From an uncultured Candidatus Saccharibacteria bacterium (GTDB lineage Bacteria; Patescibacteriota; Minisyncoccia; Phycocordibacterales; UBA918), in contig CAZFBT010000002.1 of the NCBI GenBank assembly GCA_964517185.1, positions 1 to 45,886 on the forward strand: DNA of 45,886 nt, read 5' to 3'. Below the pieces are notes generated by a model. It worked only from the letters and a program-made list of their open reading frames with translations, ran no database searches and had not been told where the DNA came from. Of this stretch, positions 27,976 to 45,886 are shown piece after piece. The position numbers were made by a program, and so were the translations under genes. Positions within the stretch are counted from its first letter, which is position 1. Each line of letters opens with the position of its first letter.

Positions 27976-29247
27976 GTGAATAAGATAAAATCAGCCATCA
28001 CACAATTCCTGCTTTGGAGCCAGAAATACACCAAAGCTGACATGAAGTATGTCGCAAAGAATGGCTCCTGGGTCGTTTTTGGGCAGTTCATGAACAGTCT
28101 CCTATCGCTCGGACTCATGGTTGCCTTTGCAAACTTGCTTCCGAAAGAAACCTTCGGTCTCTATCGGTACATCCTCTCACTCGCTGGCATTCTCAACATC
28201 TTTACTCTTACCGGTATGAACAACGCCGTATCGCGTGCCGTCGCAAGGGGAGAAGAGGGTGTGCTTAGGCCAGCTATTACCTACCAGCTCAAGTGGAACA
28301 TGCTCATGTTCGCGGCTTCGTTTACACTTGGCGGATACTATCTCATACAGGGAGATAGTATGCTTGCTATCTCTCTCTTCGTCCTCGGCTTCTTCGTGCC
28401 CCTAACACTTGCATTTAATACCTACGGTGCATACCTTGATGGAACAAAAAGATTCGGACTTGCAAATATATTGAGTGTGGCATCGACTTTAGTCTATTCA
28501 ACAGGAATGTTACTTTCCCTTACGCTTACTGATAATATTCTCTGGTTAATAATCACTTACTCACTTGCCACATTTGGCTCCTCATTTGTATTTTATGTAT
28601 ATACCGTCAGAAAATTCTCACTCCCAATTTCAGAAAATATAGAAGATACAAAGAAGTACGGGAGAGAACTCACCTACCTGCGCTTCATTGATCCTATTGT
28701 GTCCCAAATCGACAAGATCATTCTTGGAAGTTTTTGGGGTGCGGGTCAACTGGCAGTTTATACTCTTGCCTCGGCAATTCCCGGTCGGGTAATTCTCTTC
28801 CTCAAAAGCTGGATAGCTATAGGTTTTCCAAAATTCTCTGAAAAAACACCGCATGAACTCGATATGGTTTTTTATCGCCGTGTCTTTCAAGGTATGCTAA
28901 TCGGCCTTTTTGTTGCAATTGCATACGTGCTCTCTGCACCGCTTATATTCAAATACCTCCTTCCACAGTATCTTGATGGACTATTCTACTCACAACTTCT
29001 CTCCATAAGTTTTATCTTTGCTATCCCGAACCGCTATACTAGTCTCCTTTTTACCTCACAACGTTGGTCGAAAGTACTTTTTAATCGCACACTCGTCGCA
29101 AGTGGTCTACAAATTGTGCTTTACACACTCTTTGGTATTTTGGGAGGTATTTTGGGCCTTGCGTTTGCATACATCTTAAACACAGGGATCGGCGTGATGC
29201 TAAATATCTTGATGTGGAAGTGGATGAACAAAAGTTTAGCAAAATAG
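27976..29247 (+). CDS. Wzx-like oligosaccharide flippase (MOP superfamily)
   Basis: 423 aa, about 12 TM helices, GTG start. N-terminal pattern ...VAKNGSWVVFGQFMNSLLSLGLMVAFANLLPKETFGLYRYILS is typical of polysaccharide biosynthesis (flippase) proteins. Confidence 0.65.
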   Translation: MNKIKSAITQFLLWSQKYTKADMKYVAKNGSWVVFGQFMNSLLSLGLMVAFANLLPKETFGLYRYILSLAGILNIFTLTGMNNAVSRAVARGEEGVLRPAITYQLKWNMLMFAASFTLGGYYLIQGDSMLAISLFVLGFFVPLTLAFNTYGAYLDGTKRFGLANILSVASTLVYSTGMLLSLTLTDNILWLIITYSLATFGSSFVFYVYTVRKFSLPISENIEDTKKYGRELTYLRFIDPIVSQIDKIILGSFWGAGQLAVYTLASAIPGRVILFLKSWIAIGFPKFSEKTPHELDMVFYRRVFQGMLIGLFVAIAYVLSAPLIFKYLLPQYLDGLFYSQLLSISFIFAIPNRYTSLLFTSQRWSKVLFNRTLVASGLQIVLYTLFGILGGILGLAFAYILNTGIGVMLNILMWKWMNKSLAK

Positions 29248-29306
29248 ACATTACGACAAAATAAAAAATGAATTGGTCTATCGTTATCCGAATCCATACG
29301 AATAGA

Positions 29307-30056
29307 TCATGGCACCTTAATCCATATCGAATGTCCATTAAGGTTATACACAAAACGCCTATCTAAACTTTTACTCTCTTCATTCACAAAACGAGTGATG
29401 CCATCGCACGTCTTGAATCCGTAGTCATCAAAAACAACAATTCCTCCATTTGAAAGTCTTGGCCAAACCCATTCAATGATCTCTTTTGCAGACAAATAGA
29501 CATCAACATCAATATGACAAAACCGAAAGACCTCATCCTCTATATGAACACCTGTTTCATCTGGGAAAACTCCTTCAAGAATCTCAACATTTTTCAGGTT
29601 AAGCTTTTTCATCAGTGCACTAACAGTACTATAGGATGTATCGGCATGTTCTCCTCCATAATAACTTGAGTCTTTTTCTCCGGTTTTCACGACTCCTTTA
29701 AACGTATCACAAAGGTACACTTTTTCTGTCAGGCCGAGTTGCTGAGCATGTGAAGCAATGATTGCCCCACTCCCACCTCTCCAAGTGCCCACTTCAAGGA
29801 ATGCTCCTTGAGATTTTTTTGATTCTTCAACGAGCAACCACAATACATAACCTCGATACTTGTCAACAAGGGTGAATGGTCTAGCTGCTTCATAGATACG
29901 TTTAAATTGTTCATTGCAATTCCAAGGAGCGTATGAAGCTTTAGGAAATAATCGTTCATACTCCGTAAGTATTTGTACATCCTTCTTTATGACAAAGAGT
30001 TCATAACCAAAAAATCTAATAGTTGATTTAAGTAATGAATATATAAATCTAAGCAT
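29307..30056 (-). CDS. TylF/MycF-family O-methyltransferase
   Basis: GAFLEVGTWRGGSGAIIA (SAM loop), LCDTFKGV and GGIVVFDDYG are characteristic of macrocin-O-methyltransferase-like enzymes. Confidence 0.75.
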   Translation of the reverse strand: MLRFIYSLLKSTIRFFGYELFVIKKDVQILTEYERLFPKASYAPWNCNEQFKRIYEAARPFTLVDKYRGYVLWLLVEESKKSQGAFLEVGTWRGGSGAIIASHAQQLGLTEKVYLCDTFKGVVKTGEKDSSYYGGEHADTSYSTVSALMKKLNLKNVEILEGVFPDETGVHIEDEVFRFCHIDVDVYLSAKEIIEWVWPRLSNGGIVVFDDYGFKTCDGITRFVNEESKSLDRRFVYNLNGHSIWIKVP

Positions 30057-30203
30057 AGCAAGAAGTTTTTTCTTTCAGTACATCGACAACGGAATGGGTG
30101 TCGCCGCTAACTCTCATTGTATTATTGCACACAATAGTCTAAATAGCGTCTCAAGTATATAATTAGCCAAAATTTTAATTTATTTTCTTACCCAACTCAC
30201 GTT

Positions 30204-31988
30204 ATGAACGTTCTAGGTCTTAAAGTGATAGGACATGATACCGGTGCCGCTGTTGTCTCTGGAACTCGAGTCGTTGCTATAGCTGAAGAGCGGTTAAACC
30301 GTATAAAGCATTCGCCTAATATGTTTCCGCGTCTCGGTATTGACTACTGTCTTCAGAACCTTGAACTCAAGGATAGCGATATTGACCTCGTTGTTATTGA
30401 TCAGACAGGTCTTCCAACTCAACTTAGGATGCTTGAGATATTCAAACGTGAGACCGGTGATCGTTTCAAAGATGCCAGAGCACTCGTCATTAACCACCAT
30501 CTCGCTCATGCAGCATCTGCTTTTTTTTGCTCTCCATTTAAGGAATCTGCAGTGCTTGTATACGATGGGACAGGGGAAAAGTTTGTGACCCACCTCGGAG
30601 TTCATGCAACCGAAACTGATACACTCTACATGGGCAGCGGGAGCAAGCTTTATGAGATTTTGAAGAATGTCCACATTCGTGAGGGTGGTCATTTTCCGTA
30701 CACCTTCGGCATTGGAAAACTCTATGAATTTATTACTCGATACATAAATCTTGGGGAATATAACGAAGGAAAATTGATGGGGCTCGCGCCGTATGGCAAC
30801 GACTCAGTGCTCAAGAAGCACCCATTTGATGAATGGTGTCGCGAGTACAACGGGCACATCCTCTGCAATAGCAGAATCACCTACCCGGGGAAGCAGCTCT
30901 CCGCGCCCGGAATGAGTCTAAAGGCGCGCGTCCGAAGAAGGATTATTGCTCTCGCCCGTCCGCTCGTTCGGTTCCTCGCGGGGAAACTCACCGAGGATGG
31001 CCTCTACGAAGTCGAGATTTTCCCGGAGATTGAGCTCCCGAAGCCGAAACGGACCAATGAGCAGCTCCCCGACACCTACTACTCGTCGGTTGCGTACGCG
31101 GCGCAGAAGGTATTCGAGCGCGTCGCGGTTATGTTCGGACTGAAGCTCAAGAACATCACGCAGTCCGAGAACCTCTGCGTCGCCGGAGGCTGCGGACTCA
31201 ACATCGATGCGAATATGAACTTCCTCTCTGAAGTCGGCTTCAAGAACATCTTCGTCCAGCCGGCATCGTCTGACACGGGTATTCCGCTCGGCCTCGCACT
31301 CTATGGTGCACACGTCATTGCCGGAGAACCACGTTTCTATAATATGGAGAGTGCGTCACTCGGGCGAACGTATTCTGAAGCAGAGATACTCGATGCCCTC
31401 AAAGAAAGAGCGAGCGATATACGTTTCACAAAACAACCACAAATCGCATCAAAGACAGCAGCACTCATTGCGGAAGGAAAAATCGTTGGATGGTTCTATG
31501 GCGGAGGAGAATACGGACCGCGAGCACTCGGACATCGTTCCATTGTCTGTGATGCACGAAAACACGATATGAGAGATGTATTAAACCTCAAAGTCAAGCA
31601 CCGTGAACCCTGGAGACCTTTTGCAGCATCGGTACTGCGAGAACGCGTGAGTGATTTCTTCGAGTTCGATGGGTCGAGTCCCTTCATGGTACTCGCAGCA
31701 AATGTCCGGAAAGAAAAACGGGGCAGTATTCCTTCCGTGACCCATGTCGATAACACCTGCCGCATCCAAACCGTCACCAAGGAGGCGAACGGGAGATATT
31801 ATGATGTCATTAGGAACTTCTATGAACTCACTAAGGTTCCCCTCATTTTAAACACATCATTCAATCTCGGTGGAGAGCCAATTGTCGAGAGCCCAAAAGA
31901 CGCGCTCCGCACATTCCTTGCGACCAAAATGGACTACCTCGTGCTTGAAGACTACCTTGTAGAAAAGGTGAAACAAAAAGAAGTATAG
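30204..31988 (+). CDS. NodU/CmcH-family carbamoyltransferase
   Basis: 594 aa: VLGLKVIGHDTGAAVVSGTRVVAIAEERLNRIKHSPNMFP, NLCVAGGCGLN, GPRALGHRSI and THVDNTCRIQTV. Confidence 0.85.
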   Translation: MNVLGLKVIGHDTGAAVVSGTRVVAIAEERLNRIKHSPNMFPRLGIDYCLQNLELKDSDIDLVVIDQTGLPTQLRMLEIFKRETGDRFKDARALVINHHLAHAASAFFCSPFKESAVLVYDGTGEKFVTHLGVHATETDTLYMGSGSKLYEILKNVHIREGGHFPYTFGIGKLYEFITRYINLGEYNEGKLMGLAPYGNDSVLKKHPFDEWCREYNGHILCNSRITYPGKQLSAPGMSLKARVRRRIIALARPLVRFLAGKLTEDGLYEVEIFPEIELPKPKRTNEQLPDTYYSSVAYAAQKVFERVAVMFGLKLKNITQSENLCVAGGCGLNIDANMNFLSEVGFKNIFVQPASSDTGIPLGLALYGAHVIAGEPRFYNMESASLGRTYSEAEILDALKERASDIRFTKQPQIASKTAALIAEGKIVGWFYGGGEYGPRALGHRSIVCDARKHDMRDVLNLKVKHREPWRPFAASVLRERVSDFFEFDGSSPFMVLAANVRKEKRGSIPSVTHVDNTCRIQTVTKEANGRYYDVIRNFYELTKVPLILNTSFNLGGEPIVESPKDALRTFLATKMDYLVLEDYLVEKVKQKEV

Positions 31989-32001
31989 AGAGGGTCCTAC
32001 G

Positions 32002-33771
32002 TCAGGCAAGGTTGACGTAGTGCTCGACCTGATTCACAACCCACGCACTTCCATTCATGTGTGGGTCGCCGAAAAATTTATTACGTATCTCTCCAAGTAC
32101 TTCTTTGGGTATATTCTTGCTCTCTCGGATTACGGCAAGAAGGTCTGTGGGGTTCTCTGCAAATAAGCGGTGCTTTGGGTCGAACGTCTTCATGTCGAAA
32201 TAATCGCCCCACTTCTTAGTCTGAAAGAACACGAATGGTTTGTCCAAATTGACCGCTTCAATGACTCCAGTACTCTGACATCCGACTGTGATGTCGCACG
32301 ACTTGATAGCTTCGTGCATCGTACCTTTTAGGATTCTCTGCGGGCCCACTGCCTTTAGTATGTCTGGACGGTGATTCTCTAGCCACGCTTCGAAAGAATC
32401 ATGCGTGTCCCTGAACTTAATATATAGATCGAAGTCCTTAGTAGAAAGGAGTACTTCGAGATATGGAATGACTTCCTCAGGAATCGCAACTACCTCTGAA
32501 ACAAACAGAACTCTGAGGCGACCACCCGAAGGTGCAGCTTCAACCACTGGTTCACGATTCAGATTCTGTATCGGCCTCATTGGGCCAGAAACGAACACTT
32601 GGTCAGTGGCATACGCATCGCTGTATTTCTCGAAATACTCTTGCCACCATTTGCTCCATACGCCATACCTGTCTACAGACAAACGTTTTTCTCCCCTGAA
32701 ACCTTGCATGAATTCGTAGAGATTGTAGTGACGTGAGGCTACACCGTGGAGTATGCCGACAGTCGGGATCTTGTTGAGCTTGCATCCTAGTACCGTATGA
32801 AAGTTCCGTTCCGTAGTCGCAGGTATGATAGCAGCTCGTACCCCAATCGCGCGTGTTATCCATTTCATGATACGGATTGATATAACATCATCGTATACAG
32901 TGAGAAGGTACTGGGTCGCAACTGCTAACTTGAAACGAAGCTCTGGGTCATTGATTGGCGTCAAAACTGACGGCCCGAAAGCTTTTCGAGCTCGCCAGTG
33001 ACCTAGTGTGAGAATGCTCAAAAATCTCCCAATGAATACCACCGCTTCTGTATATATGACTGGGCGACGTCTAGTGTACGCGTGCTTGAGAATGATATGA
33101 GAAGGTTCAAGGCTTCTGACAAATTCAATGAAGGGCAGTTTTTTCTCCCTGAGCGATTCATAGATAAATCGCATGCGAAAATCATGGTCGCGCCCAGTCT
33201 CAAACTTATCACCGGTTGAAACGAGAATCTTCCTTCGCATGAGCATAAGAAGCGGTACAAAGAGAATCGTGAGTAGTATCTGCACAAATACGCCAAAAGG
33301 AAGCGGGGAGGGGTTCCCGCCCACTGAACCTTTAATGATCTCCACCTTACGATCGAATGCGCCGAGATAGCATTTAAATAGGCTCGCGAAGGGCGGTTCA
33401 AAAAAATGAACTTCGTCATACATCTTTAGGTGCATGAGCAGTCTTCGATACTGGCTGAAGGGCAAGCAAAAGCGAGTGAAGATATTTGGGTAATTTGTCC
33501 ACCAGAGCTCGTACCCGTGGTACACAAATGCCTTCGTCACTCGAGTGCCACTTGGGAGCGAGAGCTGTGAAATTTCCCTTGCGAGTTCGCTCGCTTCATA
33601 GATGCTCCCGGCGTCAGTCAGTGATTCAAGCTCGATATAGGAACATCCAGTCACTTTTAGATCGGCGTCGAGTAGGCGAGGTGCAATAACTGTATCAAAC
33701 TGTGCAGAAAAGAAATTATCCTCTGACGAAAATTTTTTTGAAAAAATGACAAGTGCTTTTTTAACTGACAT
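32002..33771 (-). CDS. 589-aa protein of unknown specificity, GT-B/capsule-biosynthesis-like C-terminal half
   Basis: No confident family. One hydrophobic segment (FGVFVQILLTILFVPLLMLM). The C-terminal part (LRVLFVSEV...YIKFRDTHD...ITVGCQSTGVIEAVNLDKPFVFF) resembles the nucleotide-sugar-binding half of TagF/KpsS-type transferases. GAGG lies 6 nt upstream of the ATG. Confidence 0.35.
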   Translation of the reverse strand: MSVKKALVIFSKKFSSEDNFFSAQFDTVIAPRLLDADLKVTGCSYIELESLTDAGSIYEASELAREISQLSLPSGTRVTKAFVYHGYELWWTNYPNIFTRFCLPFSQYRRLLMHLKMYDEVHFFEPPFASLFKCYLGAFDRKVEIIKGSVGGNPSPLPFGVFVQILLTILFVPLLMLMRRKILVSTGDKFETGRDHDFRMRFIYESLREKKLPFIEFVRSLEPSHIILKHAYTRRRPVIYTEAVVFIGRFLSILTLGHWRARKAFGPSVLTPINDPELRFKLAVATQYLLTVYDDVISIRIMKWITRAIGVRAAIIPATTERNFHTVLGCKLNKIPTVGILHGVASRHYNLYEFMQGFRGEKRLSVDRYGVWSKWWQEYFEKYSDAYATDQVFVSGPMRPIQNLNREPVVEAAPSGGRLRVLFVSEVVAIPEEVIPYLEVLLSTKDFDLYIKFRDTHDSFEAWLENHRPDILKAVGPQRILKGTMHEAIKSCDITVGCQSTGVIEAVNLDKPFVFFQTKKWGDYFDMKTFDPKHRLFAENPTDLLAVIRESKNIPKEVLGEIRNKFFGDPHMNGSAWVVNQVEHYVNLA

Positions 33772-33943
33772 ATTGACCTCAACATACTACCACTTGGATG
33801 TTTCATTTATAAAGCTCAATCTCGTGCTTTTATAACGATTTCGATAATTGACAATATGATTATTATTTGATATAATTAAGTAAAAAATTTGGGGAGGTTA
33901 GGGAGATTCCCAGTCCCGAAAGGAGATACAAATGTACAGCTTT

Positions 33944-39296: not shown

Positions 39297-39298
39297 CT

Positions 39299-40552
39299 CT
39301 AAGACCTTTTAAGTTCCTTGCGTTCGATTATCTTTTCGTACTCAACTATATACTGTCTGACTTTATCATCAAGATTGAATTCTTTTTCTATCCGTTGCTT
39401 GCCTGCTCGGCCGAAGCCTTCAGCTTTTTGGGTGTCTTGGAGAAGCTCAATTACTTTCTCTGCTATTTGTTCTGGATACAGCGGATTAACGACATACCCT
39501 GTCACGCCATCAACAATGATTTCAGGAGCACCACCGAAACAAGTACCAATGACTGGCTTTCCAGATGCCATCGCCTCAATGATTGCACGCGGAAGAGAGT
39601 CAAAACAAACTGAGGGAACGATAACGATGTCAGCAATAGCATTTCCCACTCTCATCTTATCTCTGTCCAACCAACCAGAGATAATGAAATTTTTTTCAAT
39701 TCCAAGTTGCTTTACTAAATTTTTCATCTTTTCAGAATAAAGGTCTTCACTACCAGCCACAAACAGTACGACCTCAGGAACATGGGGTGCGACAAGCCTC
39801 AGCATATCAATTGCTTTGTCTCCACCTTTCCCTTCGCTTAACCGGCCGGAAAAAAGTATCACCTTCTTTCCTTCAAGCCCGTACTTCTCTCTGAACGCAC
39901 TCACCTCTTCCTCTTTAGCGCCCCAGAGTGCGACATCTGTTCCCGTATGGAGCGTTTCAACCCCCTGTATGCCATTTGCAGTAAACGCATCCCTTAAGGT
40001 GCTACTTACCGCGAAAAGCTTATCTGCGTATGTGAAGTAATATCGTACTACGAAATTGCGAAGAGGATTCCAACGTTTCCCAGCAATCTTTAATTGCTCT
40101 CGCCAACTGACATGCATATCATTATTTTCAAAGTACTGTCTATTGCTTAGCTTCCCATAGTGAAAAGACATGACGTCTCGTCCTGTAAAAACAACAGCCT
40201 TTCCATACTTTTGTGCGATCTTGAAGCAGTGATACGACAGATGATAATGAACGTTGTTAATATGTACGACATCTGGTTTCAATTCTTTGAGTATCTTTTC
40301 AACCTTTCGCGTTACTGAAATATTCATAAGACTTCGGTATGCACGCCACCGTTCAGGATAGTCACTTTTGATACTGTACACTTTGAGTCCATCATACATA
40401 CTCTCCCCTACATTCTCTTCTTTTCTACAGGTGGTTATGACAGAAATATCTTGCCCAAGACGACTCATTCCAAGAGCAAGCTCATACGTGGAAAAACCAG
40501 CACCGCCCATGCTGTGCGGAGGAAAATCATCCTGAAGGAAAACTATTTTCAT
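39299..40552 (-). CDS. GT4-family glycosyltransferase
   Basis: MKIVFLQDDFPPHSMGGAGFSTYELA (GT4 N-domain). C-terminal FDSLPRAIIEAMASGKPVIGT (E.7E region). Confidence 0.85.
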   Translation of the reverse strand: MKIVFLQDDFPPHSMGGAGFSTYELALGMSRLGQDISVITTCRKEENVGESMYDGLKVYSIKSDYPERWRAYRSLMNISVTRKVEKILKELKPDVVHINNVHYHLSYHCFKIAQKYGKAVVFTGRDVMSFHYGKLSNRQYFENNDMHVSWREQLKIAGKRWNPLRNFVVRYYFTYADKLFAVSSTLRDAFTANGIQGVETLHTGTDVALWGAKEEEVSAFREKYGLEGKKVILFSGRLSEGKGGDKAIDMLRLVAPHVPEVVLFVAGSEDLYSEKMKNLVKQLGIEKNFIISGWLDRDKMRVGNAIADIVIVPSVCFDSLPRAIIEAMASGKPVIGTCFGGAPEIIVDGVTGYVVNPLYPEQIAEKVIELLQDTQKAEGFGRAGKQRIEKEFNLDDKVRQYIVEYEKIIERKELKRS

Positions 40553-40556
40553 ACCG

Positions 40557-41510
40557 TTACTTTCTTATTTCTGTATGAATGAAGACAAAATTATCTCTTA
40601 CTCCTTCTTCCGTACCCACAATACTACTCACTGGATCTAAGACCGCTTCGGTTGATAACATTCCATTACTACCGATTGAAAAAGCCTCGTACCCAAGAGC
40701 GAACAATTTCTCGATAGCATTTTGAGAATATGTTCGACCAAGTTTCCCTCCCCACACTTCCAGAATAATGGTGGGTTTGAATGTTTGGATGATTTTTTCA
40801 GCTCCACAGATAGCATCATATTCACCACCTTCAATATCAAACTTCATAATGGTTGGAGGAGTCACTGCAGAAGTAACAAACGTATCGAGAATAACAGTAG
40901 AAACCTTTCGGGTACTTATTATGCTTCCCGAAATATTGAACCGAGAACTCATAGAACTATCACTCGTGTTTGTGGCATCATAGAACTCAACGGTACCAGG
41001 AACTGATGCAACCGCAGAACAAACAACTGTGACGCGAGATTCATTTCCAAAATTCTTATTAAGGTAAGCACAGAGTGTATCGTTTGCCTCAAACGCAAAT
41101 ACCTTCCCCTCCATAAGTAAGGTCTCTGCAAGCGCAGTATAAAAACCGAGATGTGCGCCAATGTCATAGAACACGTCTTTCACACCAAGCGTTCGAATGA
41201 GATATTCGGTGAGTTTTCTTTCACTTCTATGCGGTATCATCCCATACATCGATAGCGAATATGAACCAATGTCCCTTCTGGGGAAAGACATATTCTTTTC
41301 CCAGAAAAAGCTGCCTTGAATATCGCCTTTAGGAAGTGGGAACTTGAATCGCAAGAGTGTGTGGAGAAAGTATGAAGAACCAAAGGTATGTAAACCATAG
41401 AATGCTCTCCGGAAAGGATTCTTTTCTTCCCGCACACATCTCATGGCGTTCTTATACTTCCCTACGGCATTGTGGAAAGATTCAAGTAATTGTTTTCTTT
41501 GTTCTTCCAT
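40557..41510 (-). CDS. FkbM-family methyltransferase
   Basis: ORF 40557..41582, trimmed to ATG 41510 to remove a 68-nt overlap. Motifs FYDIGAHLGFYT, VFAFEAN and IMKFDIEGGEYDAI. Confidence 0.8.
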   Translation of the reverse strand: MEEQRKQLLESFHNAVGKYKNAMRCVREEKNPFRRAFYGLHTFGSSYFLHTLLRFKFPLPKGDIQGSFFWEKNMSFPRRDIGSYSLSMYGMIPHRSERKLTEYLIRTLGVKDVFYDIGAHLGFYTALAETLLMEGKVFAFEANDTLCAYLNKNFGNESRVTVVCSAVASVPGTVEFYDATNTSDSSMSSRFNISGSIISTRKVSTVILDTFVTSAVTPPTIMKFDIEGGEYDAICGAEKIIQTFKPTIILEVWGGKLGRTYSQNAIEKLFALGYEAFSIGSNGMLSTEAVLDPVSSIVGTEEGVRDNFVFIHTEIRK

Positions 41511-41514
41511 ATTC

Positions 41515-42633
41515 CTATACTTTCTTAGATTCCATATATTCCAGGATACGTGATGCACGAGCATCCCAGGTAAATGATTCAACGAATTTCCGATTCTGTT
41601 TTGCTTTCTCTTCTAAGGCTATTTTCTCTTTTTTAATGTGTAAAACTGCATCTGCAAAACTTTCAGCGTTACCTGGTTCAAAGACAATACCCTTAGCTCC
41701 CAGAACCTCTTTAATGATTTCGAGATTCGAATAAACAATGGGCCTACCTGATGCAAGGTATTCCCATACCTTGAGAGGAAATCCGTAATTCCTGAAGTGG
41801 GATCTATCAGGATATGGTATAGCAAGAATATCCATTGCCAATTCATACTCAATGACTTTATCGAACTGTTGCTTCCCAATGAACAAACATTGTTTCTCGA
41901 CATTGAGTTCTATTGCAAGCTTTCGATATTCATCGATGTGCTGACGTGCTCCACCGACGAACACTAAATATGTGTTCGTATCTAGAAAAGGAAGCGCTCG
42001 TATCATGGTATCGAGACCCTTTTCTAATCCGACACTCCTGAATCCACCCATATATCCAACGAGATATCCGCTGAGTGGTAACTTTAATCTTTTTCTTAGT
42101 TCATTCTTACTTGTTAGTGCCATCTTATCAAAGAGCGGAAGGTCAATCCCCCCGTACGCAACCAGAATCTTTTCTTTTGATACCTCACCTGCTATTGCAA
42201 GAAGTCCTTGGAGTTTCTTCGTCGTCGTAATGAGATAGTCGCTTCCCTGTGCAACATACTTATCCTTCCAGTCCTCAAAAAGCTGATGCCAATCTGAACA
42301 TATACGGTATTTGAAGAAAAATATTTTGCGCCAGAAGACAAAGATAGAGAGAAGATATGGATCATTCGACATGAATATCACATCTGATTCATTGAAAGCC
42401 TTATTTAGAACAAAGAATGGGAACCAAAAAAAATATTTAAACGTGCGGAACCTTTCTGTCATAGAAATGGAAATTGGGTTCATACTAAAAAAACTTTCAG
42501 GTATCTTACCCCGGATGACAAAGGTAAAATCCTTACCAAGATTTTTTGCATAAGCTTCCGCAGTTGACTTGAGGTAGTATGGCTCTGCTCGTGTTGAAGG
42601 AAATGTGTAAGAGGTAATGTAAATGAGTTTCAT
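41515..42633 (-). CDS. GT4/GT1-like glycosyltransferase
   Basis: MKLIYITSYTFPSTRAEPYY. C-terminal NYGFPLKVWEYLASGRPIVYS. Confidence 0.75.
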   Translation of the reverse strand: MKLIYITSYTFPSTRAEPYYLKSTAEAYAKNLGKDFTFVIRGKIPESFFSMNPISISMTERFRTFKYFFWFPFFVLNKAFNESDVIFMSNDPYLLSIFVFWRKIFFFKYRICSDWHQLFEDWKDKYVAQGSDYLITTTKKLQGLLAIAGEVSKEKILVAYGGIDLPLFDKMALTSKNELRKRLKLPLSGYLVGYMGGFRSVGLEKGLDTMIRALPFLDTNTYLVFVGGARQHIDEYRKLAIELNVEKQCLFIGKQQFDKVIEYELAMDILAIPYPDRSHFRNYGFPLKVWEYLASGRPIVYSNLEIIKEVLGAKGIVFEPGNAESFADAVLHIKKEKIALEEKAKQNRKFVESFTWDARASRILEYMESKKV

Positions 42634-44447
42634 GACTCCTCTATATTATCCTTATCCGCTTCCGAATATTCATATATTTCAATATCACCGAAAGATGCGA
42701 CTTTGGAAACAAAGGGTAGAGTCTCCACATTCCAATTAGGATTGGTATCTTTATCCCACACAATATATTCAACCTGGTACTTTTCGAACATTTCTCTCAA
42801 GTATTCTGCTCTTGGTAGTTCGAGAGTGGAATTATATATATTAAGCAGTCGCTCAACTTCGTCTTTTGGTAAACCAATCGGGGAGCCCTTTTCATCTTGA
42901 TAATAAAAATGATACAAGTCAAAAGCGATCCTTTCTCGATCTTTATAAAATACCTCTTTTGCTGTTTTCTCATCATTCACACCACTCAGTCGATAGATAG
43001 TAAATAACATATCGAATAGCCGCTCCTCAGTGGCTCTTAGAGAGGAATATGAAACGGCACGGTGGTAGAAAACATTAAGTGGAGTATAAATGGTTACTAG
43101 CTGTGATACTTCGTCATTCCCTAGCACAACATCATCCTTATCTGCATTCTCTGAAAGCCATCTCATTGCAGGTCCATACTTTTGTCGTTCTACTGCTATG
43201 CTTCCCCCATATATATTATCTCTAGTGTAAGACGTATATTGAATAAAAATAGCGACAAAAATACTCAGGGTGACGAGAATGATTGTAAGAGCTTTCTTGT
43301 AGAGAAATAATTGATTTTTTTTCAGATAAAGATAAATAGCTACAACAACAAGAATAATTGCTATAGGTTTATGGAAGTAGTAATGATAGTGCCCAGCTTG
43401 CATTATCTTTCCGGTAAGGAGCTGTTGATTAAGTGTTATAAAAGGAGTCAGTATAAGCGCAAGGTTAAAGAGATATGATTCTCTATTTTCTTTTGGATAT
43501 AAAACAAAGAATAAAATAATTGAGGCAAAAACAACTGTTCCAACCCAAAGTGGAGCATGAGTGTGAACGACGCCAATGCGTTCACTAACTACGTCGTACA
43601 ATGGGTGCTTAGTGACGTTATATAGGTTTATAAGGTACGGTATGGCGACAAGGACAGCCCCCCCATATACAGCAGATAATTTATATACGAACTTCCATTG
43701 TTTCTGTAGTAGAAAAAAAATACCCAAAAGACCCCCGAATGCATATAGATAAGTCCAAAGGTAAAAGTAATTATAAAAAGCTGAACCAAGAAGAAGAGTG
43801 CTGGTAAAGCCCAACAACCAACCGCCGCGCTTCAACAATAACCAGAGCGAAATAAGAAAAGCAAAAAGGGGAAGTTGCACCATCGCTGGTATGACTGGTT
43901 GGCCAAAGACAAGAAAATCCACTGGACTTTCTCCCTGAAGGAAGGTTATGAGTCCATTGGGATCAAGAATATCATCTGCTAAAATTATTAAGGAGGCTGC
44001 GGTAACACCTGCAGCTTTACTTCCTGAAAGGAGTTGAACAAACCAGTATATGAGAATAAAGGTAACAAATGGAAGTATGACCCGAGAGAGAAGTAGGGTG
44101 TTATTGATATCTAATGAAAAAAGCTTACCCATGTATGCAATAACAATCGAACCCAAAGGTTGGAATAAATATGGATCATCCTTCCCTTCTTTCCAGTACA
44201 TGCTACCGAAATTAAGATTTCCATCTTGAGCTTCGCGCACTCGTGGTGACCAAAATGAGTCGGGCATGAGCTCAATTCCCTGGTACACACCGTCATCTCT
44301 ATGATCAAGGCGAAAGGCAACCTGCGGTGACGCAACAATAATTGCGGTGAGTGCCGCCAGTATAAATGCGGTTCGGTGTGCAAGGACAAATTCTTTCAAC
44401 TTAGATAGGATGTACATACAAAAATGCAAAAATAGGGTGTTTATCAA
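42630..44447 (-). CDS. GT-C-like polytopic membrane protein (glycosyltransferase or polymerase) with C-terminal soluble domain
   Basis: 605 aa, about 11 TM helices. The first loop carries acidic motifs (DHRDDG, EGKDDPY). The last ~200 aa are soluble. It overlaps both neighbours by 4 nt. Confidence 0.5.
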   Translation of the reverse strand: MINTLFLHFCMYILSKLKEFVLAHRTAFILAALTAIIVASPQVAFRLDHRDDGVYQGIELMPDSFWSPRVREAQDGNLNFGSMYWKEGKDDPYLFQPLGSIVIAYMGKLFSLDINNTLLLSRVILPFVTFILIYWFVQLLSGSKAAGVTAASLIILADDILDPNGLITFLQGESPVDFLVFGQPVIPAMVQLPLFAFLISLWLLLKRGGWLLGFTSTLLLGSAFYNYFYLWTYLYAFGGLLGIFFLLQKQWKFVYKLSAVYGGAVLVAIPYLINLYNVTKHPLYDVVSERIGVVHTHAPLWVGTVVFASIILFFVLYPKENRESYLFNLALILTPFITLNQQLLTGKIMQAGHYHYYFHKPIAIILVVVAIYLYLKKNQLFLYKKALTIILVTLSIFVAIFIQYTSYTRDNIYGGSIAVERQKYGPAMRWLSENADKDDVVLGNDEVSQLVTIYTPLNVFYHRAVSYSSLRATEERLFDMLFTIYRLSGVNDEKTAKEVFYKDRERIAFDLYHFYYQDEKGSPIGLPKDEVERLLNIYNSTLELPRAEYLREMFEKYQVEYIVWDKDTNPNWNVETLPFVSKVASFGDIEIYEYSEADKDNIEES

Positions 44448-45886
44448 AAAGAAAATGTTCTGCGTATGACTGTCCTCGCTCCTTCTTCAGAAACTTCTAT
44501 AGCGGGTGTAAGTCTTTGTCCAAGGAGCTCTGGGAGAGGAGCATATTTGGAACTTGGGACTGCTGTATATGCTGATTTAACACCGAAGAGCACGTCACGT
44601 TCGGGGGTTGGTATCCCGATGACATCTATAATGACTATGGTTTTCCTTGAATGCGTGATAGTGCGTTCAAATGGGACTGTACTCACTTTGGAACCGTATA
44701 TCATCCCTCTGCGCAAAAACCTCTTCAAAAGTTTCTGTATCCCTCTGAATCGTCCAAGGACCAACTGCCCTGCCTTGAAAGGTAGCATGATGTTCGTTCT
44801 AAGTAGTGGCTCTTGAAGATACGATGCGAACCCTCTGACATGTAATTCATTGCTCTCGTATGAGACGACATTTCCATCATTCAGTACACCAGTTGATAGC
44901 ACCCTCCCTGAATTCCGTATCTCAATGCCGCAGTCGTAATAGACTTTTTTCCCAGAATAGATACGAAATGCACCACCCTTCCTGCCATTCGCTGCCAGAA
45001 AGAAGTCTGTGTTCAATTCCCTTAGAAGAGTGCTCTCGGCAAAGTATCTTGTGTTTGCGGCAGGTTTGAAAACCTTTGGGGGCGATTCGATTCCTGTCTC
45101 TATCCAGTTGTAGAGAATGTAGCAAAGGTAGCGATCATCGAGATGAGATGGAAGGACAGCACCCAGATACGGGAGAGCTGCTGAAGGAATGAGATACTCA
45201 GTATTACGCGCCATATACTCTCCTCCTGCAGTAAGATCCGGATGTATGAATGCTTCGATGAAGGATACTGCCTTCTGAATTGCCTCGCTCGGTTTCTTTG
45301 ATTTCGTGATTCGCATATATTTGTGGAGATAGCTCACCGTAAGAGAAAGATACCCGATATCCGGACCGCCGTATTCACTCCACCATCCCTCATCACTCTG
45401 CTTCATGAGAAATGAATCGAGTAATGAATCAGCCCGCTGAAGAAGCTCGCTATCATCACATAGAGTCCCTGCTGCACCAATCGCGCACACCGCGCCCGAA
45501 ACCTGATTGAGCACTATCTTCTCTTCTGATTCGGAGAGGAAGCGAGCAGCCTTTCTAATGATTGGCCTAAGGATATTCGCCTCAGGAATATCAATACCAC
45601 GCGAATGCAGGAGTAGAAGCGTTTGGCACAGTGCAGCGGTAAGAAAGGCCGTTCCAACATAGGAACCCTCGTTAATGTACCATTCATCGAATGACCCATT
45701 CTTGCGCTGAAGTATAGCAGTGAAGGAAAGCGATGCACGAATCCATTTTAAGAGCTGTTCGTCTTGATAATACTGGTTGCCTTTGAATTCTGATGTATAC
45801 AAGAGCGCAAGAGTATAGACAGCTTCCTGATACCGACACGAGCTGATGTCATTGGTACGGTAATGCCAAAAAGCGCGGTCAAAGGA
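44444..45886 (-). CDS. alpha/alpha-toroid plus beta-sandwich protein (heparinase II/III-like or terpenoid-cyclase-like fold), 5' end outside the window
   Basis: The track start at 45802 is a TTG. The frame stays open to position 45886 (SFDRAFWHYRTNDISSCRYQEAVYTLAL-LYTSEF...). Q...G.(W/F) repeats are present (QRKNGSFDEWY, QSDEGWWSEYGG). The function is not assignable. Confidence 0.6.
   Translation of the reverse strand, partial: SFDRAFWHYRTNDISSCRYQEAVYTLALLYTSEFKGNQYYQDEQLLKWIRASLSFTAILQRKNGSFDEWYINEGSYVGTAFLTAALCQTLLLLHSRGIDIPEANILRPIIRKAARFLSESEEKIVLNQVSGAVCAIGAAGTLCDDSELLQRADSLLDSFLMKQSDEGWWSEYGGPDIGYLSLTVSYLHKYMRITKSKKPSEAIQKAVSFIEAFIHPDLTAGGEYMARNTEYLIPSAALPYLGAVLPSHLDDRYLCYILYNWIETGIESPPKVFKPAANTRYFAESTLLRELNTDFFLAANGRKGGAFRIYSGKKVYYDCGIEIRNSGRVLSTGVLNDGNVVSYESNELHVRGFASYLQEPLLRTNIMLPFKAGQLVLGRFRGIQKLLKRFLRRGMIYGSKVSTVPFERTITHSRKTIVIIDVIGIPTPERDVLFGVKSAYTAVPSSKYAPLPELLGQRLTPAIEVSEEGARTVIRRTFSF

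What the first reader, a model, noticed from the sequence alone, without database searches (positions are those of the whole stretch)
27976..45886. AT-richer glycan island with an unassignable CMP-sugar pathway and heavy tailoring capacity
From 45886 down to 33944, twelve minus-strand genes are separated by gaps of at most 6 nt or overlap each other. They are an alpha/alpha-toroid protein, a GT-C-like membrane protein, a GT4, an FkbM methyltransferase, a second GT4, a KdsB-like cytidylyltransferase, a 2-hydroxyacid dehydrogenase, a Gfo/Idh/MocA oxidoreductase, a Zn-ribbon methyltransferase-fold protein, a SIS isomerase and an IMPase-like phosphatase. They are followed by a 589-aa unknown, a carbamoyltransferase, a TylF methyltransferase and a flippase.

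A SIS isomerase, a phosphatase and a KdsB-like enzyme resemble the Kdo route (KdsD, KdsC, KdsB). However, no KdsA-type aldolase is present, the phosphatase belongs to the wrong family, and two dehydrogenases are inserted. This suggests a different CMP-activated acidic sugar that is then methylated and carbamoylated. I saw no priming phosphoglycosyltransferase in the window.

I counted G+C by hand on single 60-nt lines. Values were 19/60 (43261), 21/60 (39301), 24/60 (36001) and 24/60 (33001). Core genes gave 35/60 (3001) and 38/60 (16801). This fits horizontal acquisition. The composition is patchy, though: the line at 31081 inside the carbamoyltransferase gene gave 37/60.
Basis: partly seen in the sequence, partly recalled or inferred. 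Interest (0 to 1): 0.65.

Follow-up and report, generated by a model that had tools for sequence, protein, structure and literature searches.

The report
Aldolase-free CMP-acid-sugar gene cassette
Inside a lower-GC surface-sugar gene cluster of a probable ultra-small (CPR/Patescibacteria) bacterium sits a rare six-gene cassette, shared with DPANN archaea and often fused gene-to-gene, that most likely oxidises a seven-carbon sugar phosphate into a new CMP-activated acidic sugar without the aldolase that every known pathway of this kind uses.

Summary
Window 27976-45886 has 44% G+C against 54% upstream. It carries 11 (not 12) tightly packed minus-strand genes, then a 589-aa protein, a carbamoyltransferase, a TylF methyltransferase and a Wzx flippase. 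No priming transferase or KdsA/NeuB/HpcH aldolase is in the window.

The core is a six-gene cassette: KdsB-like cytidylyltransferase, 2-hydroxyacid dehydrogenase (2-HADH), divergent Gfo/Idh/MocA dehydrogenase, methyltransferase-fold protein without a SAM motif, GmhA-type isomerase and IMPase-type phosphatase. The same order recurs in other Patescibacteria contigs, and variants occur in DPANN archaea.

The dehydrogenase family is tiny: 64 clusters among 1.84 billion representatives. Natural fusions join isomerase::dehydrogenase, dehydrogenase::2-HADH, 2-HADH::phosphatase and cytidylyltransferase::dehydrogenase. These proteins therefore act in one pathway.

Best reading (inferred, about 0.45): sedoheptulose-7-P → heptose-7-P → 7-phospho-heptonate → 2-keto-7-phospho-heptonate → hept-2-ulosonate → CMP-hept-2-ulosonate. 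GT4 or GT-B enzymes then transfer it, and it is O-methylated or carbamoylated.

No paper describing this was found. Horizontal acquisition rests on composition alone. It is a new variant of CMP-ulosonic-acid biosynthesis, and the product is untested.

The parts
38490..39296 (-). KdsB-family CTP:ulosonate cytidylyltransferase (268 aa). Predicted last step: forms the CMP-sugar.
   Evidence: - Pfam CTP_transf_3, E 6.9e-46.
- Passes NCBIfam TIGR00466 kdsB (172.5 bits, cut-off 155.2) and NF003952. PseF scores only 46.9 against 205.7.
- Best solved relative is E. coli KpsU 1gq9, E 3.7e-41.
- The CTP-loop (PARMGSSRLPGK), QGDEP and VDT Mg-ligand motifs are present. They match the residues listed for Aquifex KdsB in PMC3149649.
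37562..38503 (-). D-isomer-specific 2-hydroxyacid dehydrogenase (313 aa). Predicted to oxidise C2-OH of the phospho-aldonate to the 2-keto acid.
   Evidence: - Pfam 2-Hacid_dh_C, E 2e-51.
- Below every NCBIfam equivalog cut-off.
- Best PDB hits are P. horikoshii PGDH 1wwk (1e-55) and glyoxylate reductases. A 2-ketogluconate reductase (9m0t) is also in the list.
- The catalytic Arg/Glu/His motifs are present: NSARG, DVYDEEP, TPHIGG.
- The PGDH 'VRS' stretch reads 'VAL' here.
- Fused to the Gfo-like enzyme in P0188 and P0200, and to IMPase in L014.
36323..37558 (-). Divergent Gfo/Idh/MocA-fold dehydrogenase (411 aa), the signature protein of the cassette. Predicted heptose-7-P 1-dehydrogenase.
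   Evidence: - Pfam hits are only below threshold.
- 36 homologues among 5.8e9 proteins.
- 64 clusters at E<=1e-30 among 1.84e9 representatives.
- AF2 model has pLDDT 93.
- The top three Foldseek PDB hits are glucose-6-P dehydrogenases, followed by aldose/inositol dehydrogenases.
- The sequence profile finds only Gfo/Idh/MocA members.
- Invariant residues include EKP, E134-YYL-x2-K140 and GGGMIQD225-x3-H229.
35334..36326 (-). Zn-ribbon, class-I-methyltransferase-fold protein with a degenerate SAM motif I (330 aa). Accessory partner of the Gfo-like enzyme; role unknown.
   Evidence: - Methyltransf_23, E 1.9e-5, below cut-off.
- 17 homologues.
- Four invariant Cys.
- Motif I reads VLDYRP... with no Gly-rich loop in all cassette members. 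Only the distant P0171 keeps VDVGAGYG.
- Fused to the Gfo-like enzyme in P0191.
- Absent from the DPANN versions.
34656..35327 (-). GmhA-type SIS_2 sugar-phosphate isomerase (223 aa). Predicted sedoheptulose-7-P to D-glycero-D-manno-heptose-7-P.
   Evidence: - SIS_2, E 2.3e-22.
- Best NCBIfam model is gmhA, 129 bits, below the 209 cut-off.
- Best PDB hit is B. pseudomallei GmhA, E 1.4e-31.
- H73, D77, E187 and H195 are invariant, and are shared with canonical heptose-pathway GmhAs of L007 and L008.
- Fused to the Gfo-like enzyme in P0186.
33944..34702 (-). IMPase/FBPase-family phosphatase (252 aa). Predicted to remove the terminal phosphate before CMP activation.
   Evidence: - Inositol_P, E 7.4e-49.
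- Below all equivalog cut-offs. The FBPase/IMPase model scores best and CysQ lower.
- Best PDB hit is SuhB, E 1.4e-32.
- The DPLDGS and WDVAAG motifs are present.
- Fused in-frame to 2-HADH in L014.
32002..33771 (-). 589-aa membrane-anchored GT-B-fold protein. Candidate transferase for the CMP-sugar.
   Evidence: - No Pfam, NCBIfam or PDB sequence hit.
- AF2 model has pLDDT 87.6.
- Foldseek finds GT-B enzymes (GlgM, NeuC/MnaA, MurG), E about 2e-9, TM 0.4-0.6.
- One hydrophobic helix at about 154-185.
- More than 340 Patescibacteria homologues.
- Distant homologues (24% identity, E 3e-22) directly follow the KdsB-like gene in L003 and L006. Closer ones (about 50%) lie 1.2-2.9 kb downstream of the cassette in L004 and L009.
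39299..40552 (-). GT4 glycosyltransferase (417 aa)
   Evidence: Glycos_transf_1 E 1.4e-33 and Glyco_transf_4 E 9.3e-17. A 2-nt gap separates it from the KdsB-like gene.
40557..41582 (-). FkbM-family methyltransferase (up to 341 aa; the start codon is uncertain)
   Evidence: Methyltransf_21, E 2.6e-15. FkbM genes recur near the cassette in L004, L009 and L013.
41515..42633 (-). GT4/GT1-type glycosyltransferase (372 aa)
   Evidence: Glyco_trans_1_4 E 1.4e-18 and Glycos_transf_1 E 8.3e-18.
42630..44447 (-). 605-aa polytopic membrane protein with a C-terminal soluble part of about 195 aa. The GT-C-like assignment is unverified.
   Evidence: No family hit even at E<=10. About 9-10 hydrophobic segments in residues 19-408. 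Not found in related loci.
44444..45886 (-). N-terminally truncated protein (at least 480 aa) of unknown family. The reading frame is open to the window end.
   Evidence: The frame is open to base 45886. The only hit is a sub-threshold TED_complement match, E 0.057. Not found in related loci.
30204..31988 (+). NodU/CmcH-type O-carbamoyltransferase (594 aa)
   Evidence: Carbam_trans_C E 1.1e-67 and Carbam_trans_N E 7.2e-38. A 32%-identical homologue lies beside the archaeal cassette in L013.
29307..30056 (-). TylF-type O-methyltransferase (249 aa)
   Evidence: TylF E 7e-19 and Methyltransf_24 E 1.2e-13. Methyltransf_24 genes sit upstream of the cassette in L004 and L009.
27976..29247 (+). Wzx-type flippase (423 aa)
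   Evidence: Polysacc_synt, E 1.6e-22. A homologue is present in L004.

Best explanation
The island is a Wzx-type surface-glycan locus built around a six-gene nucleotide-sugar cassette at 33944-39296.

Proposed pathway:
1. The GmhA-type isomerase converts sedoheptulose-7-P to D-glycero-D-manno-heptose-7-P.
2. The G6PD-like Gfo/Idh/MocA enzyme oxidises C1, giving 7-phospho-heptono-lactone or 7-phospho-heptonate.
3. The 2-HADH oxidises C2-OH, giving 7-phospho-hept-2-ulosonate. [quoted passage not shown]
4. The IMPase-type enzyme removes the 7-phosphate, playing the KdsC role.
5. The KdsB-family enzyme makes CMP-hept-2-ulosonate.

The net effect turns C1 of a ketose into a carboxylate and keeps the 2-keto group. 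No PEP or pyruvate aldolase is needed, and the product keeps its 3-OH (Ko-like, not Kdo-like). The zinc-ribbon protein with a dead methyltransferase motif is an accessory of the dehydrogenase with unknown role. The GT-B-like 589-aa protein and/or the GT4s would transfer the sugar. FkbM, TylF and carbamoyltransferase enzymes would decorate the glycan, and Wzx would export it.

Shown: the family assignments, the conserved gene order, the rarity of the family, the gene fusions and the absence of an aldolase.
Inferred: the substrate, the order of steps, the regiochemistry and the product.
For: 1. The identical six-gene order occurs in L004, L005, L009 and L023 at 50-77% identity. None has an aldolase within 10 kb.
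2. Five fusions were seen. Three join predicted consecutive steps: Gfo-like::SIS (P0186), Gfo-like::2-HADH (P0188, P0200) and 2-HADH::IMPase (L014). The other two are CTP_transf_3::Gfo-like (L014) and Gfo-like::MT-like (P0191).
3. Heptose origin:
   - The SIS protein is GmhA-type and keeps the catalytic and metal residues.
   - Gfo-like paralogues sit beside complete NDP-heptose operons in L007 and L008.
   - A TAL_FSA transaldolase gene sits next to the SIS gene in DPANN loci L013 and L014.
4. C1-oxidation role:
   - The top structural neighbours of the Gfo-like model are G6P dehydrogenases and aldose 1-dehydrogenases.
   - Its Poribacteria relative in L018 sits next to the mannonate dehydratase UxuA.
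5. The electron count fits. Two dehydrogenases supply the two 2-electron oxidations needed.
6. Precedent for 2-HADH acting on a phospho-aldonate: KguD (PMC11678583) and a 2-ketogluconate reductase among the PDB hits.
7. The cytidylyltransferase passes the kdsB equivalog cut-off and keeps the catalytic residues. Its substrate should therefore be a free 2-ulosonic acid, which explains the phosphatase.
8. A parallel cassette, L011, has the same logic with different parts: GAPDH-like aldehyde dehydrogenase, 2-HADH, HAD phosphatase and CTP_transf_3.
Against: - No enzyme was assayed and no glycan is known.
- More distant cassettes (L001, L003, L006) add an HpcH/HpaI pyruvate aldolase and radical-SAM enzymes. 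Their 2-HADH is only 25-31% identical to this one. The aldolase-free scheme is therefore not universal and the core enzymes may have other roles.
- The Gfo/Idh/MocA fold also supports C3 and C4 oxidations (KijD10, WlbA, GnnA and levoglucosan dehydrogenase rank almost as high). The sequence profile does not detect G6PD.
- The SIS protein is below the gmhA equivalog cut-off.
- The DPANN cytidylyltransferase is a short, divergent CTP_transf_3, not a clear KdsB orthologue.
- The rest of the genome is unseen, so an aldolase could be encoded elsewhere.
- 2-HADHs usually favour reduction.
Confidence: 0.45

Rival explanations
1. Same oxidative logic, but on a hexose. Fructose-6-P goes to an aldohexose-6-P, then 6-phospho-aldonate, then 2-keto-6-phospho-aldonate, then a hex-2-ulosonic acid (2-ketogluconate-type), then the CMP-hexulosonate.
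For: - KguD and G6PD chemistry is literally the hexose case.
- TAL_FSA family members in the DPANN loci could be fructose-6-P aldolases rather than transaldolases.
- The SIS protein is below the gmhA equivalog cut-off.
Against: - The SIS protein is closest to GmhA and shares its invariant residues with the GmhAs of bona fide heptose operons.
- Gfo-like paralogues are linked to NDP-heptose operons.
- A heptulosonate pyranose with an exocyclic CH2OH is closer to the Kdo shape expected for a KdsB-family enzyme (inference).
Confidence: 0.12
2. The product is Kdo or another 3-deoxy-2-ulosonic acid. The aldolase (KdsA, NeuB or HpcH type) is encoded elsewhere in the genome. The SIS and IMPase enzymes substitute for KdsD and KdsC, and the two dehydrogenases modify the sugar, for example at C3, C4 or C8.
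For: - The cytidylyltransferase passes the kdsB equivalog threshold.
- Related cassettes L001, L003 and L006 include an HpcH/HpaI aldolase. L001 also has a KpsC/KpsS-type Capsule_synth gene.
- The genome outside the 45.9-kb contig is unseen.
Against: - No aldolase in the window or within 10 kb in L004, L009 and L023.
- The SIS protein is GmhA-type, without the CBS domains of KdsD.
- Both dehydrogenases are physically fused to the isomerase, the phosphatase and the cytidylyltransferase in relatives. They are therefore core steps, not optional tailoring.
- The relatives are Patescibacteria and DPANN archaea, which are not known to make LPS (my own knowledge).
Confidence: 0.15
3. The 2-HADH plus IMPase pair makes hydroxypyruvate from 3-phosphoglycerate (PGDH followed by a phosphatase). 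An aldolase then condenses it with a heptose-derived aldehyde made by SIS and the Gfo-like enzyme, giving a higher-carbon 3-hydroxy-ulosonic acid that is CMP-activated.
For: - The 2-HADH is most similar to PGDH.
- The 2-HADH::IMPase fusion fits a two-step hydroxypyruvate module.
- HpcH aldolases (L001, L003, L006) or TAL_FSA enzymes (L013, L014) accompany the cassette in other lineages.
Against: - This window and its closest relatives have no aldolase at all.
- The PGDH 'VRS' stretch is not conserved in this 2-HADH: it reads 'VAL' where the P. horikoshii PGDH has 'VRS'. That this stretch binds the substrate phosphate comes from memory.
- The Gfo-like::2-HADH fusions argue that the two dehydrogenases act on the same molecule.
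Confidence: 0.1
4. The product is not a ulosonic acid. It could be a CDP-linked open-chain heptitol or ketose phosphate (as in CDP-6-glucitol or CDP-ribitol), or an inositol or cyclitol derivative made by IMPase plus a Gfo-type inositol dehydrogenase.
For: - Cytidylyltransferase plus reductase pairs make CDP-6-D-glucitol from fructose-6-P (PMC10918830).
- The IMPase plus Gfo/Idh/MocA pairing is classic for aminocyclitol pathways (own knowledge).
- L001 carries a DHQ-synthase-like cyclase in its cassette.
Against: - The cytidylyltransferase is KdsB-family, not IspD/TarI or IPCT type.
- A phosphatase would destroy the phosphate needed for a CDP linkage.
- No inositol-phosphate synthase or cyclase is in this window or in L004 or L009.
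- A GmhA-type isomerase has no role in the cyclitol schemes.
Confidence: 0.06

Closest known systems
CMP-Kdo pathway (KdsD, KdsA, KdsC, KdsB)
   Same: The overall logic matches: sugar-phosphate isomerase, then a phosphorylated 2-keto acid, then a phosphatase, then a KdsB-family cytidylyltransferase. The last enzyme passes the kdsB model cut-off and keeps the catalytic residues.
   Different: - No KdsA aldolase.
- The isomerase is GmhA-type, not KdsD (SIS+CBS).
- The phosphatase is IMPase-fold, not HAD.
- Two dehydrogenases replace the C-C bond-forming step.
- The predicted product is C7 with a 3-OH, not C8 and 3-deoxy.
[quoted passage not shown]
   Same: The predicted steps 2 and 3 are the one-carbon-longer analogue of G6P to 6-phosphogluconate to 2-keto-6-phosphogluconate. 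The Gfo-like model's best structural matches are G6PDHs. The KguD reaction is described in PMC11678583.
   Different: - Here the reactions would run biosynthetically, with the 2-HADH in the oxidising direction.
- The substrate would be a heptose phosphate.
- The steps are coupled to CMP activation.
- By sequence the dehydrogenase is a divergent Gfo/Idh/MocA member, not a Zwf.
NDP-D-glycero-D-manno-heptose pathway (GmhA, HddA/HldE, GmhB, HddC)
   Same: It shares the first step and a GmhA-type enzyme. Gfo-like paralogues are genomic neighbours of such operons in L007 and L008.
   Different: There is no anomeric kinase, no HAD GmhB and no NTP_transferase here. Activation is by a CMP-forming KdsB-type enzyme after oxidation.
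Nonulosonic acid pathways (NeuB/NeuA, Pse, Leg)
   Same: They end in a CTP_transf_3 enzyme that makes a CMP-linked alpha-keto acid sugar used on cell surfaces.
   Different: There is no NeuB-type PEP condensing enzyme, no UDP/GDP-HexNAc tailoring enzymes and no aminotransferase. The PseF model scores 46.9 against a cut-off of 205.7.
PLP-pathway pair Epd/PdxB and serine-pathway SerA
   Same: The logic matches: aldose phosphate to phospho-aldonate (aldehyde oxidation), then to a 2-keto phospho-acid by a 2-HADH. The parallel cassette L011 even uses a GAPDH/Epd-like enzyme with a 2-HADH, a phosphatase and a CTP_transf_3.
   Different: The substrates differ in length. Here the product is dephosphorylated and nucleotide-activated for glycan assembly.

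Membership tests
Kdo biosynthesis pathway | KdsA (DAHP_synth_1) aldolase condensing PEP with arabinose-5-P | tested here: not met
   No such domain occurs in any window ORF, nor among called genes within 10 kb of the cassette in L004, L009 and L023. The rest of the genome is unseen.
Kdo biosynthesis pathway | KdsD/KpsF-type arabinose-5-P isomerase (SIS plus tandem CBS) | tested here: not met
   The protein is 223 aa and SIS_2 only. The kpsF model gives E 8.6e-4 and 19 bits against a cut-off of 203.7. The gmhA model is the best hit.
Kdo biosynthesis pathway | KdsC HAD-superfamily Kdo-8-P phosphatase | tested here: not met
   The only phosphatase is of the Inositol_P (IMPase) family.
KdsB (CMP-Kdo synthetase) family | Sequence membership, plus the CTP-loop Arg/Lys and two Mg-binding Asp | tested here: met
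   TIGR00466 scores 172.5 against 155.2 and NF003952 scores 240 against 193. KpsU 1gq9 gives E 3.7e-41. The motifs PARMGSSRLPGK, QGDEP and VDT are present in the sequence and were compared with PMC3149649. Specificity for Kdo itself was not tested.
GmhA (sedoheptulose-7-P isomerase) | SIS_2 fold with conserved His/acid/acid-or-Gln/His catalytic-metal residues | tested here: inconclusive
   The residues H73, D77, E187 and H195 are invariant and shared with the GmhAs of heptose operons. The protein scores 129 bits, below the TIGR00441 cut-off of 209.
Gfo/Idh/MocA oxidoreductases | N-terminal Rossmann fold with EKP motif, and a C-terminal alpha/beta domain with GGG-x3-D-x3-H | tested here: met
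   The motifs are present and invariant. The fold match has TM about 0.6-0.78. The profile hits only this family in the PDB. Pfam scores are below the gathering cut-off, so it is a divergent member.
Glucose-6-phosphate dehydrogenase (Zwf) family | Sequence membership (G6PD_N/G6PD_C) and the RIDHYLGKE substrate motif | tested here: not met
   No Pfam or PDB sequence match to G6PD. There is only top-ranked structural similarity and an E-Y-Y-L-x2-K stretch that resembles the motif, which I recall from memory.
Class I SAM-dependent methyltransferases (for 35334-36326) | Gly-rich motif I (E/DxGxGxG) that binds SAM | tested here: not met
   The motif reads VLDYRPIFS, with the same loss in all cassette orthologues. 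It is retained only in the distant P0171. The fold assignment rests on a sub-threshold Methyltransf_23 hit.
Nonulosonic acid (Neu/Pse/Leg) pathway | NeuB-type synthase and NeuA/PseF-type synthetase | tested here: not met
   No NeuB in the window. PseF scores 46.9 against a cut-off of 205.7.
Horizontally acquired genomic island | Compositional deviation from the host genome | tested here: inconclusive
   G+C is 0.444 against 0.535, p 1.5e-6. However, GatB and its neighbour are equally low, and only 28 kb of 'host' sequence is available. The closest cassette relatives sit in contigs with about 45% G+C.
Horizontally acquired genomic island | Mobility signatures: tRNA target, integrase or transposase, flanking direct repeats | tested here: not met
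   No tRNA. No integrase or transposase domain in any ORF. One island boundary lies outside the window, and flanking repeats were not searched.
Wzx/Wzy-dependent glycan assembly | Flippase, polymerase or ligase, and an initiating phosphoglycosyltransferase | tested here: inconclusive
   Wzx is present at 27976-29247 and a Wzy_C/TPR protein at 19670-21859. No PGT is in the window.

The most novel reading that the evidence does not exclude
The cassette encodes the first aldolase-independent, purely oxidative route to a 2-ulosonic acid. It would yield a previously undescribed nucleotide sugar, CMP-hept-2-ulosonic acid (3-hydroxy, C7), from sedoheptulose-7-P. The pathway would be a near-exclusive trait of ultra-small episymbiotic lineages (Patescibacteria/CPR and DPANN archaea). 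It is shared across the two domains and diversified by added aldolase, radical-SAM or methyl modules.
Probability: 0.4. Interest if true: 0.8.

Novelty: new variant of a known kind. Interest (0 to 1): 0.68.

Why it matters
- Every characterised CMP-activated acidic sugar (Kdo, Kdn, sialic, legionaminic and pseudaminic acids) is built by condensing PEP or pyruvate with an aldose. An oxidative route from a ketose phosphate would be a new biosynthetic logic and would add a new monosaccharide to the microbial glycome.
- The cassette occurs almost only in CPR bacteria and DPANN archaea. Their surfaces mediate attachment to hosts, yet their glycans are essentially uncharacterised.
- The cassette gives a compact, fully specified set of five or six soluble enzymes that can be reconstituted from commercial sedoheptulose-7-P.
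- It also warns that automated annotation will label the cytidylyltransferase '3-deoxy-manno-octulosonate cytidylyltransferase' in organisms that probably make no Kdo.

Tried and rejected
- **Kdo-route reading.** Rejected as a membership claim. KdsA, KdsD and KdsC features are all absent.
- **IMPase as a CysQ-type PAP phosphatase.** This would serve the nearby ATP-sulfurylase/APS-kinase (22065-23774), and L003 has sulfotransferases beside its cassette. Judged unlikely. The CysQ models score lower than the FBPase/IMPase models. The gene is fused to 2-HADH in L014. It travels with the cassette in loci that lack sulfation genes.
- **The 300-aa ORF after the Gfo-like gene in L007 as a divergent copy of the MT-like protein.** Not homologous, 19% identity.
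- **Sequence searches of the 589-aa, Gfo-like and MT-like proteins against PDB sequences.** These gave nothing or only marginal hits. Structure prediction was needed.
- **Kdo-contacting residues of KdsB from the literature.** The two papers read list only CTP and Mg residues or docking results. Sugar specificity could not be judged from sequence.
- **Promoter and terminator scan of the island.** Counts do not exceed shuffled expectation.
- **Exact-sequence look-ups.** The Patescibacteria assignment rests on the taxonomy of homologues.
- **Literature searches.** Five searches for the gene combination, for heptulosonic acids and for CPR glycosylation found no description of this cassette.

Full report
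**1. What is in the sequence**

The window splits compositionally near 27.9 kb. G+C is 0.535 for 1-27900 and 0.444 for 27901-45886. For 1-kb windows the means are 0.539 and 0.443, Mann-Whitney p 1.5e-6. Island genes have GC3 of 0.29-0.53. SecA, MurB, Obg, the Wzy_C/TPR protein and the ATP-sulfurylase/APS-kinase have GC3 of 0.61-0.74. GatB and the neighbouring 371-aa ORF (10.4-13 kb) are as low as the island, at about 0.46.

From the window end down to 33944 there are eleven minus-strand genes with junctions between -68 and +6 nt.

Family scans confirm most labels:
- two GT4-type glycosyltransferases and an FkbM methyltransferase;
- a CTP_transf_3/KdsB-like cytidylyltransferase;
- a D-2-hydroxyacid dehydrogenase (2-HADH);
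- a weak Gfo/Idh/MocA hit;
- a weak Methyltransf_23 hit with a C4 zinc ribbon;
- a SIS_2 isomerase and an IMPase-family phosphatase;
- then a 589-aa protein with no family, a NodU-type carbamoyltransferase, a TylF methyltransferase and a Wzx flippase.

The two genes nearest the window end have no significant family match. The first is truncated by the window end and has only a sub-threshold hit to an alpha/alpha-toroid domain, E 0.057. The 605-aa protein has about 9-10 hydrophobic segments followed by a soluble tail.

No phosphoglycosyltransferase, KdsA, NeuB or HpcH aldolase, tRNA or integrase is present anywhere in the window.

**2. The cassette is a conserved, rare unit**

The Gfo-like protein (36323-37558) has only 36 homologues among 5.8 billion clustered proteins. 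The few that carry a taxonomic label are Patescibacteria. A profile search that read all 1.84 billion representatives found 64 clusters at E<=1e-30, with a sharp break after that. The zinc-ribbon protein has 17 homologues.

Contigs with the closest relatives (L004, L005, L009, and L023 and L024 from other metagenomes) show the same six genes in the same order: cytidylyltransferase, 2-HADH, Gfo-like, MT-like, SIS, IMPase. Identities are 50-77%. No aldolase lies within 10 kb, and a homologue of the 589-aa protein plus an FkbM gene lie just downstream.

More distant Patescibacteria cassettes (L001, L003, L006) keep the Gfo-like, MT-like, SIS and KdsB-like genes. They add an HpcH/HpaI aldolase, radical-SAM enzymes and further methyltransferases. 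Their 2-HADH is only 25-31% identical.

A scan of species-representative genomes found relatives in DPANN archaea, Poribacteria and Patescibacteria. The DPANN loci carry TAL_FSA (transaldolase family), SIS_2, CTP_transf_3, Gfo-like, 2-HADH (47-54% identical to the window's) and IMPase. L013 also has an FkbM gene and a carbamoyltransferase.

**3. Gene fusions tie the enzymes together**

In the Nanoarchaeota contig L014, one ORF encodes CTP_transf_3 plus Gfo-like (612 aa). No start codon is available at the junction. The next ORF encodes 2-HADH plus IMPase (547 aa).

Among the family representatives:
- P0186 is Gfo-like::SIS (51% identical to the window SIS);
- P0188 and P0200 are Gfo-like::2-HADH (49-50%);
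- P0191 is Gfo-like::MT-like (36%).

The two dehydrogenases are therefore core members of one pathway together with the isomerase, the phosphatase and the cytidylyltransferase. They are not optional insertions.

**4. What each protein looks like**

*Cytidylyltransferase.* It passes the NCBIfam kdsB equivalog cut-off (172.5 against 155.2) and fails PseF. It is most similar to E. coli KpsU, E 3.7e-41. It keeps the CTP-loop Arg/Lys and the two Mg-binding Asp described for KdsB (PMC3149649).

*SIS protein.* It is closest to B. pseudomallei GmhA, E 1.4e-31. It shares the invariant His/Asp/Glu/His positions with canonical GmhAs of CPR heptose operons, but it is below the gmhA equivalog cut-off.

*2-HADH.* It is about equally close to archaeal PGDH and to glyoxylate reductases, and a 2-ketogluconate reductase is among its PDB hits. 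The catalytic Arg/Glu/His residues are intact. It reads 'VAL' where the P. horikoshii PGDH has 'VRS'.

*IMPase.* It keeps the DPLDGS and WDxAAG motifs. It scores best with the FBPase/IMPase model.

*Gfo-like protein.* The model is confident (pLDDT 93). Its three best structural matches are glucose-6-phosphate dehydrogenases, followed closely by KijD10, scyllo-inositol/L-glucose dehydrogenase, L-arabinose 1-dehydrogenase and others. By sequence profile it is a divergent Gfo/Idh/MocA member.

*MT-like protein.* It has lost the Gly-rich SAM motif in every cassette orthologue. A distant relative in a different cassette keeps it.

*589-aa protein.* The model is good (pLDDT 87.6). It is a GT-B-fold enzyme with one membrane helix. 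Distant homologues directly follow the KdsB-like gene in L003 and L006. The family as a whole is broad in Patescibacteria, with more than 340 hits.

**5. Most likely mechanism (inferred)**

A KdsB-family enzyme needs a free 2-ulosonic acid. With no aldolase, the keto acid must come from oxidation. Exactly two dehydrogenases are present for the two oxidations required.

The proposed order is:
1. S7P to D-glycero-D-manno-heptose-7-P (GmhA-type SIS).
2. To 7-phospho-heptonolactone or 7-phospho-heptonate (G6PD-like Gfo enzyme).
3. To 7-phospho-hept-2-ulosonate (2-HADH, the reverse of the KguD reaction; PMC11678583).
4. To hept-2-ulosonate (IMPase-type phosphatase).
5. To CMP-hept-2-ulosonate (KdsB-like enzyme).

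Three of the observed fusions (SIS-Gfo, Gfo-2-HADH, 2-HADH-IMPase) join exactly these consecutive steps.

Heptose origin is supported by three observations:
- the GmhA type of the isomerase;
- Gfo-like paralogues next to complete NDP-heptose operons in L007 and L008;
- a transaldolase-family gene beside the SIS gene in DPANN loci.

A sugar-acid-forming role for the Gfo-like family fits its Poribacteria relative, which sits next to mannonate dehydratase. An unrelated cassette, L011, repeats the logic with a GAPDH-like aldehyde dehydrogenase, a 2-HADH, a HAD phosphatase and a CTP_transf_3.

Downstream, the GT-B-like 589-aa protein and/or the GT4s would transfer the sugar. FkbM, TylF and the carbamoyltransferase would decorate the glycan, and these enzyme types recur beside the cassette elsewhere. 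Wzx would export it. I put this scheme at about 0.45.

**6. Rivals**

- The same chemistry on a hexose (0.12).
- A Kdo-like 3-deoxy acid, with the aldolase encoded elsewhere (0.15).
- 2-HADH plus IMPase making hydroxypyruvate for an aldolase-based higher-carbon acid (0.10).
- A non-ulosonic CDP-alditol or cyclitol product (0.06).

The main weaknesses of the preferred scheme are these:
- Related cassettes contain an HpcH aldolase.
- The Gfo fold does not fix the regiochemistry.
- The rest of the genome is unseen.

**7. Comparison with known systems and novelty**

The pathway works like the Kdo pathway at its two ends (isomerase; phosphatase plus KdsB). In the middle it works like the G6PD/KguD or Epd/PdxB chemistry. 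It fails the membership tests for the Kdo, nonulosonic-acid and NDP-heptose pathways.

Five full-text searches found no description of this gene set or of a CMP-heptulosonic acid. I rate it a new variant of a known kind (CMP-ulosonic-acid biosynthesis). There is a credible chance that the chemistry, an oxidative and aldolase-free route, is new.

**8. Horizontal acquisition**

The compositional step is real. The closest cassette relatives reside in contigs with about 45% G+C, similar to the island. However, there are no mobility signatures, one boundary is outside the window, and a housekeeping gene shows the same low G+C. Transfer is plausible but not shown.

Noticed in passing
L014:9365-11203 and L014:11181-12824; proteins P0186, P0188, P0200, P0191: Natural fusion proteins join cassette enzymes: CTP_transf_3::Gfo-like, 2-HADH::IMPase, Gfo-like::SIS, Gfo-like::2-HADH and Gfo-like::MT-like. 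P0185 and P0189 carry the Gfo-like domain with a C-terminal membrane tail.
   Followed up: yes
L003:10001-20806, L006:10001-21233, L001:9856-21133: Elaborated versions of the cassette occur in Nealsonbacteria and other Patescibacteria. They add an HpcH/HpaI pyruvate aldolase, one or two radical-SAM enzymes (one B12-binding), an intact methyltransferase, and in L001 a DHQ-synthase-like cyclase, an SDR, DUF386 and a KpsC/KpsS-type Capsule_synth gene. This suggests a family of related but more complex CMP-acid sugars.
   Followed up: partly
L011:10001-15158: A different cassette has parallel logic: an intact Zn-ribbon methyltransferase (the only relative that keeps SAM motif I), a HAD phosphatase, a GAPDH-like dehydrogenase, an FAA-hydrolase-fold protein, CTP_transf_3 and a 2-HADH. 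It sits next to NeuB and a Bac_transf priming transferase.
   Followed up: no
window 33848-33876 (+ strand): A perfect extended sigma-70 consensus (TTGACA, 17 nt, TG, TATAAT; 12 of 12) lies in the 172-nt gap between the 589-aa gene and the IMPase gene. It points antisense into the 3' end of the IMPase gene. No + strand ORF follows it.
   Followed up: no
window 10409-12995: The housekeeping gene gatB and the adjacent 371-aa unknown ORF have G+C of about 0.46 and GC3 of about 0.46. This is as low as the glycan island and sits inside the otherwise 54-60% G+C part of the contig. Base composition is therefore mosaic beyond the island.
   Followed up: partly
window 19670-23774: A Wzy_C (O-antigen-ligase-like) protein with C-terminal TPR repeats and a fused ATP-sulfurylase/APS-kinase lie just upstream of the island. 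No sulfotransferase is in the window. In L003 an ATP-sulfurylase and two sulfotransferases flank the related cassette, hinting that these glycans may be sulfated.
   Followed up: partly
window 32002-33771 and proteins P0038-P0156: The 589-aa GT-B-fold, single-pass membrane protein belongs to a large Patescibacteria-wide family (more than 340 hits at about 50% identity). The Pfam copy used here has no model for it. One member (P0066, 978 aa) is fused to a GT4 domain.
   Followed up: partly
L018:8642-11230 (Poribacteria): A Gfo-like family member outside CPR and DPANN sits between a UxuA mannonate dehydratase and other sugar-acid catabolic genes (a TPP enzyme and a second Gfo/Idh/MocA). This suggests a catabolic aldose-to-aldonate ancestry for the family.
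   Followed up: no
window 2016-9281 and 24842-27817: There is a 2421-aa ORF with no Pfam domain. Its 3' end overlaps a PemK/MazF-like ORF by 134 nt as called. There is also a 991-aa secreted LCAT/alpha-beta-hydrolase protein with a FIMAH domain. Both may be large surface or secreted proteins.
   Followed up: no
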